A DNA stretch of 64,000 nucleotides from Rhynchobatus australiae. Taxonomy: Eukaryota. Shown in pieces: positions 1-3,000 of the stretch (its first letter is position 1; each line of letters starts with the position of its first letter). A program made the position numbers. The stretch spans positions 24,437,013 through 24,501,012 of the forward strand of contig JAUZTB010000068.1 in assembly GCA_034780895.1 (NCBI GenBank), read 5' to 3'.

Positions 1-3000
1 ATAGCCAGTGTTTGAACAGCCAGGCTGCAAGGTATTGCAGACAAAGTCGCTCTGTTCATCGCCCCATACACTCTCTGCTGCTACTACATAGACCAGAACT
101 CTGAAGATGAAGACCACGGACAGCCAGATCCGCCCAAATCCAGTTGAGTATTTATTCACTCCGCTGATCACACCTTGTAATGTGCCCCAGTCCATGGCAC
201 TTGGAAAGTATCAACTTGTTGATCTAAAATACAAACAATAGAAGACTTTACTTTTGCTTTTCATTTTTTTATTTAATTAACAGGTAAGCAGGATCTATGA
301 ACAATTAAATCTAAACATCAGAATGGGTGTTCTTAAAAACAGAGAGAGAACAATCATAATTGAGTTTCTATGAGATTCTGGGCCTCTGTATCTCCCTCTG
401 TAACTGGATCCTCAACTTTCTCATCAGCAGATCTCAATCAGTGAGGATAGCTCACAACATCTCCTCCTCACCAACCACCAGCAGAGGTGCACCTCAAGGC
501 TACGTGCTTAGACCCTGCTCTACTCTCGATACCCACATGACTGTCTGGCTAAGCACATCTTCAATGCCATATACAAATTCGCTGATATCACCACTGGTTT
601 TGGGCAAATCACAGGTGGGAAATGAGTCACTGGAGCAAGATAGGACTTCTGCTTGAGTGGTGCCACAACAGCAACCTTTTGCTTAACATCAGTAAAACTA
701 TAGAACTGATTGTTGACTTCAGGAAGGGGAAGGAGGGTGAACATGTGTCAGTCTACATTGGTGGATTGAGTGTGGAGGGTTCAGCAGTTTTCAATTCCTG
801 GGTATTAACGTATTGGATGAACTATCCTGGGCACAGCACATAGACGCAAACACAAGGAAGGCGAACCAATGTATTTAGCTCTTAGGAGGTTCGGCATGTC
901 ACTGAACACTTTAACAAACTTCTACAGATGTACTGTTGAAAATATCTCGAATGGTTGCATCATGGTTTAGTACAGCAATTCGAATGTGCAAGAATGTAAG
1001 AAGCTCCAGAGAGCAGTGGATGCAGCTCAATATATCATGGGCACATCCCTCCCCGCATCAAAAGTATCTACATGAGGTGCTGCCTCAAGAAGGCAACATC
1101 TATCATCAAAGATCCTTACCATTCGGACCACATCATCTTCGTGCAGCTACCATTGGGCAGGAGGTATAGAAGCCTGAAGTCCCACACCACCAGGTTCAAG
1201 AACAGCTACTTCCCTTCAACCATTCAGTTCCTGAGCTAACCTGCACAACCCTGATCACCACTTTAGTATAGCAACACTATGACCACTTTGACTTCTTTGC
1301 ACTACAATGGACTTGTTTCTTTTTCTGTTCTAATTGTGTTCTTTCTTGTATAATTTTGTATAATTTATGTTTAATTTACATTTTTCTTGTGAATGTTTGT
1401 CTCTAATGCTATGTGCCCGTGATACCGCTGCAAGGTTTTCATTGCACCTGTGAATACATGTACTTGTGCATATGACAATGAACTCGATTTTTGACTCTGG
1501 TTAAAAAAAACTGATTCAGATTGTTCCTCATTTTATTNNNNNNNNNNNNNNNNNNNNNNNNNNNNNNNNNNNNNNNNNNNNNNNNNNNNNNNNNNNNNNN
1601 NNNNNNNNNNNNNNNNNNNNNNNNNNNNNNNNNNNNNCACCCTCTCTAAAGCTTCCACATCCTTCCTATAATGAGGCAACCAGAACTGAACACAATACTC
1701 CAAGTGTGGTCTAATCAGAGTTTTATGAAGCTGCAACATCACCTCGCAGCTCTTGAACTCAATACCCCAACTAATGAAGGTCAACACACCATGCACCTTC
1801 TTAACAACCCTATCAATCTATGTGACAACCTTGAGGGATCTATAGACATGGATCTCAAGATCCCTCTGTTCCTCCACACTGCTAAGAGTCCTGCCATTAA
1901 CCTTGTATTCTGCCTTCAGATTCAATCTTCCAAAGTGTATCACTTCACACTTATCCGGGTTGAACTCCATCTGCCACTTCTCAGTCCAGCTCTGCATCCT
2001 ATAAATGTCTTGTTGTAATCTACAGCAACCTTCTATACTATCCGCAACACCATCAACCTTTGTGTCATCTGCAAACTTACTCACCCACCCTTCCACATCC
2101 TCATCCAAGTCATTTATAAACTCCACAAAGAGCAGGGGTCCCAGAACAGACCATGGAATCTGAGGTGGCCTAAAGAACATTCTCATGGACAAATGTCACA
2201 GATGGCAGAAATGAGCAGACTTTTTTTGGACAAACTATATTCAGTTTTCTCTCTGTAAGTTCCTTCACCTCTGAAATTCGTGTTTGACTCCAACTCAAAC
2301 CAATGAAACCAAAATCTACTCCCCAGTCTTTATGAATCTACAGAGTGATTACTAATAGTTATTGATGGAAACTGAAAACAGGGTTTAGATGTGAAGAGAT
2401 CTAGTAATTTGTAATTTTGCTGATGATTAAGTTGGTGAAGTGCTCAGTACAAGCACAACTCCCATGGCAGAAGCCCCAGAAGTTGTCACACTCCAAAATT
2501 TGGACGATACTTGGCAGCACACTGAGGCAGCTTACACACATACATCTGCACACATTCTACCCTCAGTCTTCAAACCAAGTGATATATGTGACAGTGTTTA
2601 ATGGTTTTCCTGGCCACAACACCTAGATGTGATGAAAGTTGCTTCAACTATCAACTGACAACTGTTGATCTGAATATGGAATGCCCATGAGACTTAACAT
2701 GTGCAAACTGTTTAAATACAAAGTACATACACTCCTGGACATACTGGAAATCGACACGTATAGGCAACTACAGAATGAGTTAACATGACTTATTCGCGCA
2801 GCTTTTCATTACAACACTGATTGAAATCTCCTATTGGAGATGACCATGACAGATAATCACAGGCAAGCCTGAACAATCTGAGAACTGGCTGTGGTCATGT
2901 TGAAGGAATAGATCACAAAATGAACAACTTTTGCTGGCTTCGGCATAACTGTGGTGTCTGACAGGAAGATGGATTCATTCCAAATGCCTAGACTGGTTAG

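What the first reader, a model, noticed from the sequence alone, without database searches (positions are those of the whole stretch)
1..195. Hidden second connexin lacking an invariant extracellular cysteine (C64G)
Seen: an open frame missed by the ORF track whose EL1 reads C53-NTLQPG-C60-SNT-G64-Y (codon GGC at 6-4); the paralog at 29348 has C-x6-C-x3-C. The neighbouring V63 is also changed, to T. Established: connexins use three EL1-EL2 disulfides (Cx26 C53-C180, C60-C174, C64-C169) for folding and docking, and Cx23/GJE1 is the known natural 4-Cys exception. Inference: the remaining codons look purifying-selected, so this could be a 4- or 5-Cys beta-connexin with altered docking (for example hemichannel-only), an early pseudogene, or a single-base error (TGC to GGC).
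Basis: partly seen in the sequence, partly recalled or inferred. Interest (0 to 1): 0.7.

Follow-up and report, generated by a model that had tools for sequence, protein, structure and literature searches.

The report
Ray connexin exon, one odd codon
This is the start of an ordinary, very conserved gap-junction (connexin) gene of a sawfish-like ray in which one normally invariant cysteine codon reads glycine, more likely a base error or a private damaging variant than a new kind of channel.

Summary
Window 195..1 (minus strand) holds 65 open codons from an ATG to the window edge. They match Pfam Connexin (E 2e-27), and codon 64 reads GGC (Gly) where Cx26 has C64.

The exon belongs to a chondrichthyan-wide beta-connexin orthogroup annotated "GJB3-like/GJB4-like". 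All 27 named orthologue records, from 23 species, read N-T/S-C-Y here. T63 is therefore normal for the group and only G64 is private.

The closest record is from Pristis pectinata and is 64/65 identical, differing only at residue 64. The neighbouring paralogue is 137/139 identical to the P. pectinata protein. The window therefore comes from a close relative of that sawfish.

Across 97 named hits, 102 of 103 EL1 motifs keep this Cys. The change sits in one of 51 invariant columns, whereas the paralogue's two differences sit in variable ones. That pattern fits an unselected hit: a base error or a young damaging mutation.

By published mutant data, a real G64 would break the C64-to-EL2 disulfide and abolish junction formation. 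Reads, the rest of the exon and orthologue DNA were out of reach, so error and variant cannot be separated. Interest is low.

The parts
1..195 (-). Codons 1-65 of the coding exon of a beta-type connexin: N-terminal helix, TM1 and the first part of extracellular loop 1. The exon continues beyond the window edge.
   Evidence: open frame from the ATG at 195-193. (Pfam Connexin, E 2e-27). (64/65 identical to the Pristis pectinata orthologue P0124). (1:1 alignment with Cx26 residues 1-65).
4..6 (-). Codon 64, GGC (Gly), at the position of the third EL1 cysteine. Only one single-base neighbour of GGC encodes Cys, namely TGC.
   Evidence: sequence. (C in 27 of 27 orthologue records). (C in 102 of 103 motif occurrences in 97 named hits). 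(neighbours of GGC).
196..245 (-). 28 nt of 5' UTR inside the coding exon (223..196), preceded by an AG at 225-224 and a pyrimidine-rich run (about 245..226). This is the likely splice acceptor of the coding exon. The sequence around the start codon reads gccATGg.
   Evidence: Read directly. The paralogue has the same layout: AG at 29376-29375, 26 nt before its ATG, after a T-rich run. That this is the acceptor used is inference; no RNA data were available.
28551..29348 (-). Tandem paralogue, same strand, about 28 kb upstream in the direction of transcription. It is a 265-codon GJB3-like connexin with a complete EL1 C-x6-C-x3-C. Bases 28642-29017 are N and were left as they are.
   Evidence: ORF. 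(Pfam, E 5.9e-51 for the first 110 residues). (137 of 139 unmasked residues identical to P. pectinata P0153). (tblastn finds only these two connexin loci in the window).

Best explanation
Window 195..1 (minus strand) is the beginning of the single coding exon of an ordinary six-cysteine-type beta connexin. It is the orthologue, in a ray closely related to the smalltooth sawfish, of a gene that all sampled sharks, rays and the elephant fish possess. It lies in tandem with a GJB3-like gene.

It probably belongs to one of the three linked gjb3-related gene sets described for Chondrichthyes. Which set, gjb3.2 or gjb10, was not resolved, because the paper's supplements were closed.

The protein family works as follows. 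Six subunits form a hemichannel. In each subunit three disulfides tie EL1 to EL2, and the rigid loops dock with a hemichannel of the neighbouring cell.

The Gly at residue 64 is a private, single-base change (TGC to GGC is the one-step route) that selection has not tested. It is either a base-call or assembly error, or a young damaging mutation carried by the sequenced animal or its species. My split is about 0.40 error and 0.35 real damaging variant in a still intact gene.

If the base is real, the C64 to first-EL2-cysteine bridge cannot form. That partner is C164 in orthologue numbering and C169 in Cx26. One EL2 thiol is then left free. By analogy with laboratory and disease mutants, the subunit should still reach the membrane but fail to build junction channels.

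Shown here: identity of the gene, its orthology, and the uniqueness of G64. Inferred: the origin of the change and its functional effect.
For: (1) Gene identity: Pfam Connexin E 2e-27 and a 1:1 alignment with Cx26.

(2) Orthology: the best named hits are 246-254-aa elasmobranch 'GJB3-like/GJB4-like' proteins at 92-97% identity. The P. pectinata record is 64/65 identical and shares the otherwise unique I10.

(3) Tandem layout with the 265-aa GJB3-like gene. Chondrichthyes are reported to have three closely linked gjb3-related sets (PMC7914757, passages).

(4) G64 is private. C is found in 27 of 27 orthologue records. All 23 species aligned keep EL1 C-x6-C-x3-C and EL2 C-x4-C-x5-C. C is found in 102 of 103 motif occurrences in 97 named hits.

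(5) The change looks unfiltered by selection. It falls in one of 51 invariant columns of 65. The paralogue's two differences from P. pectinata (H67Q, V107M) fall at positions that vary among 14 species. Elasmobranch orthologues carry only 0-3 private changes at otherwise invariant sites in 212 columns, 11 in total over 22 species.

(6) There is no sign of decay in what is visible. No stop or frameshift occurs in 65 codons, the ATG context and acceptor-like site are intact, and the P. pectinata copy has only 1 private change.

(7) The window holds 30 N runs, ten of them exactly 100 long. If these are scaffolding gaps, the assembly is a fragmented draft in which base errors are commoner.

(8) Expected effect of a real G64:
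- Single Cys-to-Ser changes of each loop cysteine of Cx32 abolished channel function (Dahl et al. as cited in PMC2132700, passages).
- Cx26 C169Y, which breaks the C64-C169 bridge, reaches the membrane but forms no junction channels (PMC7824951, passage; PMC4383868, start of abstract in the listing).
- GJB1 Cys64Tyr is reported in a CMTX patient (PMC4390163, start of abstract).
- Single Cys-to-Ala mutants of Cx46 were expressed and localised normally, but their hemichannels did not open (PMC9266770, abstract).
Against: No read-level, RNA or population evidence was available, so error and real variant could not be told apart. An intact gene downstream of codon 65 is assumed, not seen.

No independent record of this species' gene was found, either with C or with G. 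No hit (the 120 listed, proteins of 115-2000 aa) exceeds 97% identity. The best of the 15 hits (35-114 aa) is 78% identical.

Whether the N runs are gaps or masks is unknown. The 376-N run inside the paralogue keeps the 265-codon length exactly, which looks like a mask. The argument about draft quality is therefore weak.

One difference in 65 residues equals the divergence seen in the paralogue (2 of 139), so a true species difference is not surprising in number, only in position.
Confidence: 0.75

Rival explanations
1. Early pseudogene. In this species the gene has lost its function and is starting to decay. C64G is the first visible lesion, or one of several, with the others lying beyond the window edge.
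For: A radical change at a residue kept in 27 of 27 orthologue records is what relaxed constraint would allow. No protein of this species for this gene is in the collection searched; that may only mean the species is not annotated. Tandem paralogues (three linked sets according to PMC7914757) could give redundancy.
Against: 64 of 65 residues are identical to P. pectinata, with no stop or frameshift, an intact ATG and an intact acceptor-like site. The orthogroup is retained with all six cysteines in 23 of 23 species. The sawfish copy shows no acceleration, with 1 private change in 212 columns. One lesion in 65 codons cannot show decay.
Confidence: 0.15
2. A real, fixed and functional five-Cys connexin, or a four-Cys one if the EL2 partner is lost too. 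Docking would be altered: for instance a hemichannel-only or redox-sensing beta connexin, a second natural exception besides Cx23.
For: Natural exceptions exist. Cx23 has four loop cysteines; zebrafish Cx23 is reported to form junctions and hemichannels, and mouse Cx23 hemichannels only (PMC10598745, passage; PMC4729916, passage). A Cx43 lacking the extracellular cysteines formed hemichannels but no junction channels (Bao et al. as cited in PMC4729916). The rest of the exon is perfectly conserved.
Against: Cx23 lost a matched pair, and a different one (the second cysteine of each loop). Here only one partner is seen to be lost. The closest relative and every other orthologue keep C64 and the full EL2 set. 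Single loop-cysteine replacements gave closed hemichannels in Cx46 (PMC9266770, abstract) and dead channels in Cx32. No accompanying adaptive changes are seen nearby, since T63 and S61 are shared with relatives.
Confidence: 0.07

Closest known systems
Pristis pectinata 'gap junction beta-3 protein-like' (XP_051892508.1, P0124, 222 aa)
   Same: 64 of 65 residues are identical, including I10, which no other of the 23 species has. The same source contig length (38,352,228) is listed for it and for that species' 265-aa GJB3-like protein. In the window the two genes lie in tandem.
   Different: It has C at 64 and the window has G. The window is not that assembly: the paralogue differs at 2 of 139 unmasked residues.
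Chondrichthyan gjb3-related gene sets (gjb3, gjb3.2 = proposed gjb9, gjb10) of Mikalsen et al. 2021, PMC7914757
   Same: Three closely linked gjb3-related sets are reported on one chromosome in cartilaginous fishes (passages). The alignment shows three such groups: 265-aa MDWK-type, 232-254-aa MDWG...NTCY-type, and 255-285-aa MNW-type. The window holds the first two.
   Different: Which published name fits the fragment's group was not verified; the paper's supplementary tables were closed. The paper excluded predicted sequences with improper cysteine patterns. The window's copy, as it reads, would fall in that excluded class.
Human Cx26 (GJB2), solved structures 2zw3 / 6uvr
   Same: Gap-free 1:1 alignment over residues 1-65, with the identical stretch [16 protein letters not shown]. 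Cx26 has loop cysteines C53, C60, C64 and C169, C174, C180, and Cys169 bonds Cys64 (PMC7824951, passages).
   Different: It is a different orthogroup (GJB2, against the GJB3/4/5 side). Cx26 reads KNVC and the window reads SNTG.
Cx23 / GJE1, the natural four-cysteine connexin
   Same: A connexin that departs from the six-cysteine rule.
   Different: Cx23 lacks the second cysteine of each loop, as a matched pair (PMC4729916, passage), and is encoded by three exons (PMC10598745, passage). The window's gene keeps C60 and lacks the third EL1 cysteine. Its EL2 is not visible. It belongs to the beta group.
Loop-cysteine mutants: Cx32 single C-to-S, Cx26 C169Y, GJB1 C64Y, Cx46 single C-to-A
   Same: Loss of one partner of a loop disulfide, in two cases of the very bridge concerned here (C64-C169).
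   Different: These are laboratory or disease alleles of other connexins and none is a Gly replacement. Their loss-of-function outcome is carried over to this gene by analogy only.

Membership tests
Connexin gene family (Pfam PF00029) | Significant match to the family profile from the N-terminus on | tested here: met
   E 2e-27, 96.9 bits against a cut-off of 31.3, residues 2-65 on profile positions 1-64 of 225. E 2.6e-29 to solved Cx26.
Connexin gene family (Pfam PF00029) | Four transmembrane helices and two extracellular loops | not testable with these tools
   Only the N-terminal helix, TM1 and the start of EL1 lie in the window. The rest of the exon is beyond base 1, and no eukaryotic genome collection was on hand.
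Canonical six-cysteine, docking-competent connexin | EL1 signature C-x6-C-x3-C | tested here: not met
   C53-x6-C60-x3-G64. As the sequence stands the third cysteine is absent. All 27 orthologue records have it.
Canonical six-cysteine, docking-competent connexin | EL2 signature C-x4/5-C-x5-C | not testable with these tools
   It lies outside the window. The orthologues of 23 of 23 species have C-x4-C-x5-C.
Chondrichthyan MDWG...NTCY orthogroup (annotated GJB3-like/GJB4-like, 222-254 aa apart from longer models) | Highest identity to members of this group rather than to the two sister groups, and shared group-specific residues (S42, E47, S49, T63) | tested here: met
   86-97% identity to this group against 75-83% to the other two. 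T63 is shared. 64/65 identical to the P. pectinata member.
Chondrichthyan MDWG...NTCY orthogroup | Tandem linkage to the 265-aa GJB3-like gene | tested here: met
   both genes are on the minus strand, 28 kb apart.
Cx23/GJE1-type four-cysteine connexins | Loss of the second cysteine of each loop as a pair | tested here: not met
   C60 is present and the missing residue is the third one. The defining feature is taken from PMC4729916 (passage).
Processed or decaying pseudogene | Stops, frameshifts, or loss of start or splice signals | tested here: inconclusive
   There are none in the 65 visible codons, and the ATG and acceptor-like AG are intact. About three quarters of the CDS is unseen.

The most novel reading that the evidence does not exclude
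In one lineage of sawfish-like rays a deeply conserved beta connexin has truly and permanently lost the C64 to first-EL2-cysteine bridge, perhaps together with its EL2 partner, which lies just outside the window. That would give a second natural class of reduced-cysteine connexin. It would lack a different disulfide from Cx23 and might work as a hemichannel or as a redox-sensitive channel rather than as a docking junction.
Probability: 0.07. Interest if true: 0.6.

Novelty: new member of a known kind. Interest (0 to 1): 0.15.

Why it matters
If the Gly were real, fixed and tolerated, it would be a natural experiment on which of the three loop disulfides a connexin can do without. Only Cx23 is named as such a case in the review passages I read.

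As things stand it matters mainly as a caution. A lone radical change at an invariant residue, a few bases from the end of the sequence in hand and in a window with many N runs, is not evidence of a new protein class.

The positive result is modest. An unannotated species' copy of a chondrichthyan-wide gjb3-group connexin, and its tandem partner, are placed and described.

Tried and rejected
(1) I looked for an independent sighting of G64. No hit (proteins of 115-2000 aa, best 120 of 720 listed) exceeds 97% identity. (35-114 aa, 15 hits at E <= 1e-20) has a best identity of 78%. Cluster members added 21 further named orthologue records, all with C64. Nothing from the window's own species turned up.

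(2) I tested whether the window is P. pectinata itself, in which case the RefSeq protein would contradict the base. This is rejected: the paralogue differs at 2 of 139 unmasked residues.

(3) I tested for accelerated evolution in the sawfish lineage, a hint of decay. It is not seen: 1 private change in 212 columns.

(4) The reading that 'V63T is a second lesion' is rejected.

(5) I searched for a third connexin, or a displaced rest of the exon, inside the window. There is none (tblastn).

(6) Pfam was run on six other ORFs of the window. One matched RVT_1 and five matched nothing.

(7) The Iovine et al. 2008 paper on Cx23 is not held. I used what two reviews say about it.

(8) Tools not used:
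- Structure and complex prediction, because a 65-residue fragment cannot show a disulfide whose partner is unseen.
- Genome contigs, because it holds only bacteria and archaea.
- Metagenome contigs and viral contigs, which were closed and stayed unchecked.

Only the single visible exon piece was used. The window is not taken for human. N runs were left unfilled.

Full report
**What is in the sequence**

On the minus strand an ATG at 195-193 opens a frame that stays open to base 1 (65 codons). The translation matches Pfam Connexin with E 2e-27 over profile positions 1-64. It also aligns without gaps, residue for residue, to positions 1-65 of solved Cx26 chains.

The end of the frame reads C53-NTLQPG-C60-SNT-G64-Y65, and codon 64 is GGC at 6..4. 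The frame is absent from a closed-ORF list only because it runs off the window.

Upstream there are 28 nt of UTR after an AG (225-224) that follows a pyrimidine-rich run. The paralogue has the same arrangement: AG at 29376-29375, 26 nt before its ATG. I read these as the acceptors of the coding exons. That reading is inference, since no RNA data were on hand.

**What gene it is**

The best named full-length hits are elasmobranch proteins of 246-254 aa labelled 'gap junction beta-3/beta-4 protein-like', at 92-97% identity. Their 90% clusters hold 27 named records from 23 species of sharks, rays and the elephant fish.

In the alignment three groups of chondrichthyan gjb3-like proteins stand apart:
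- a 265-aa MDWK type, to which the window's paralogue at 29348..28551 belongs;
- the MDWG...NTCY type, to which the fragment belongs;
- an MNW type.

This fits the published statement that Chondrichthyes have three closely linked gjb3-related gene sets (PMC7914757, passages). Which published name (gjb3.2 or gjb10) belongs to the fragment's group I could not verify, because the supplements were closed.

tblastn with five chondrichthyan connexins finds only these two loci in the window. They lie on the same strand, 28 kb apart.

**Which animal**

The P. pectinata orthologue is 64/65 identical to the fragment and shares I10, which none of the other 22 species has. The paralogue's 139 unmasked residues are 137/139 identical to the P. 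pectinata GJB3-like protein and 126-132/139 identical to 13 other species.

The window therefore comes from a close relative of the smalltooth sawfish. It does not come from that annotated assembly. It is not human.

**How unusual G64 is**

- All 27 orthologue records read C at 64.
- All 23 species aligned keep EL1 C-x6-C-x3-C and EL2 C-x4-C-x5-C.
- Among the 120 listed hits, I dropped 22 unnamed ones and one human record and examined the 97 named ones. The strict motif occurred 98 times in 92 of them, with C at 64 in 97 occurrences and W in one.
- The five proteins without the strict motif also have C.
- The single W is in a partial egret model in which residues typical of the region just before EL2 follow directly. 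It is a mis-joined model, not a substitution.

G64 is thus private to this window.

**What kind of change it looks like**

Of the first 65 columns, 51 are invariant in 23 species, and the change sits in one of them. In contrast, the two differences between the window's paralogue and the sawfish protein (H67Q, V107M) lie at positions that differ in many of the 14 species compared. That is where selection lets substitutions through.

Elasmobranch orthologues show 0-3 private changes at otherwise invariant sites in 212 columns, 11 over 22 species, and these are mostly conservative. A radical hit on an invariant cysteine is what an unfiltered event gives: a base error, or a young mutation that selection has not yet removed.

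Only one single-base neighbour of GGC encodes Cys, namely TGC.

Long-term constraint is strong: dN/dS is 0.044 against the paralogue, with dS saturated. This says nothing about the last stretch of history.

The sawfish copy shows no acceleration, so there is no lineage-wide decay.

**Error or real?**

This could not be settled.

No protein identical to the fragment exists among those searched.

The window has 30 N runs totalling 4451 bases, ten of them exactly 100 long. If these are scaffold gaps, the assembly is a fragmented draft and base errors are more likely. At least the 376-N run in the paralogue keeps the 265-codon length exactly and so looks like a mask. I therefore give this argument little weight.

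The odd codon is 4-6 bases from the end of the sequence in hand. Whether that end is also a contig end is unknown.

My split:

| Reading | Probability |
|---|---|
| Base or assembly error | 0.40 |
| Real damaging variant in a live gene | 0.35 |
| Early pseudogene | 0.15 |
| Fixed functional variant | 0.07 |
| Other | remainder |

**What a real G64 would do**

In Cx26 the six loop cysteines are C53, C60, C64 and C169, C174, C180, and Cys169 bonds Cys64 (PMC7824951, passages). In the orthologues the EL2 cysteines are C164, C169 and C175. By homology the lost bridge would be C64-C164, leaving C164 unpaired.

Published precedents:
- Replacing any one loop cysteine of Cx32 by serine abolished channel function, and moving one cysteine alone gave under 1% of wild-type conductance (PMC2132700, passages).
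- Cx26 C169Y reaches the membrane but forms no junction channels and causes deafness (PMC4383868, start of abstract).
- GJB1 Cys64Tyr is reported in a CMTX patient (PMC4390163, start of abstract).
- Single Cys-to-Ala mutants of Cx46 were expressed and localised normally, but their hemichannels did not open (PMC9266770, abstract).
- A Cx43 without extracellular cysteines formed hemichannels but no junctions (as cited in PMC4729916, passage).

The expected outcome is loss of junction formation. Hemichannel activity is uncertain.

**Comparison with the known exception**

Cx23 lacks the second cysteine of each loop, as a matched pair, and has three exons. Here the second cysteine is present, the third is missing, and its partner is unseen.

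The window's gene is not a Cx23-type connexin. It is a member of the connexin family and of a named orthogroup that, as the sequence reads, fails the EL1 cysteine signature. The authors of the family-wide survey excluded predicted sequences with improper cysteine patterns (PMC7914757, passage).

**Verdict**

This is an ordinary gene with one unverified odd codon. The novel reading is not excluded, but I put it at about 0.07.

N runs were left as they are.

Noticed in passing
window 1818-2186 (-): A 122-codon ORF matches Pfam RVT_1 (E 2.4e-07, 31.1 bits against a cut-off of 29.6). It is a retroelement reverse-transcriptase remnant about 1.6 kb upstream of the connexin start.
   Followed up: partly
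window, 30 N runs (e.g. 1538-1637, 15484-15583, 28642-29017): There are 4451 N in 30 runs. Ten runs are exactly 100 long, four are exactly 10 long, and the rest are irregular. The 376-N run inside the paralogue keeps the ORF at exactly 265 codons, the length of its orthologues, so it replaces bases one for one. Nothing was filled in.
   Followed up: partly
P0124 (Pristis pectinata orthologue), C-terminus: The sawfish protein ends about 24 residues earlier (222 aa) than those of stingrays and mantas (245-246 aa). The Narcine protein is also short (230 aa). The cytoplasmic tail after TM4 is the variable part of this orthogroup.
   Followed up: no
P0034 (Egretta garzetta, partial model): This is the only named hit without Cys at position 64. 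It reads W there, followed directly by residues typical of the region before EL2, which looks like a mis-joined gene model.
   Followed up: partly
P0174: A 69-aa protein fragment with a Connexin Pfam domain is filed under Salmonella enterica on a 312-base contig. This is presumably vertebrate DNA in a bacterial assembly.
   Followed up: no
P0001-P0007: The top-scoring hits are 383-562-aa models from teleosts, a turtle and mammals. One search counted 98 EL1 motifs in 92 proteins, so some models carry more than one connexin N-terminus, probably tandem genes fused by annotation. Which models do so was not checked.
   Followed up: no
P0125 (Leucoraja erinacea orthologue): Its source flags this orthologue as 'LOW QUALITY PROTEIN'. 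It still has C64 and the full cysteine set.
   Followed up: no
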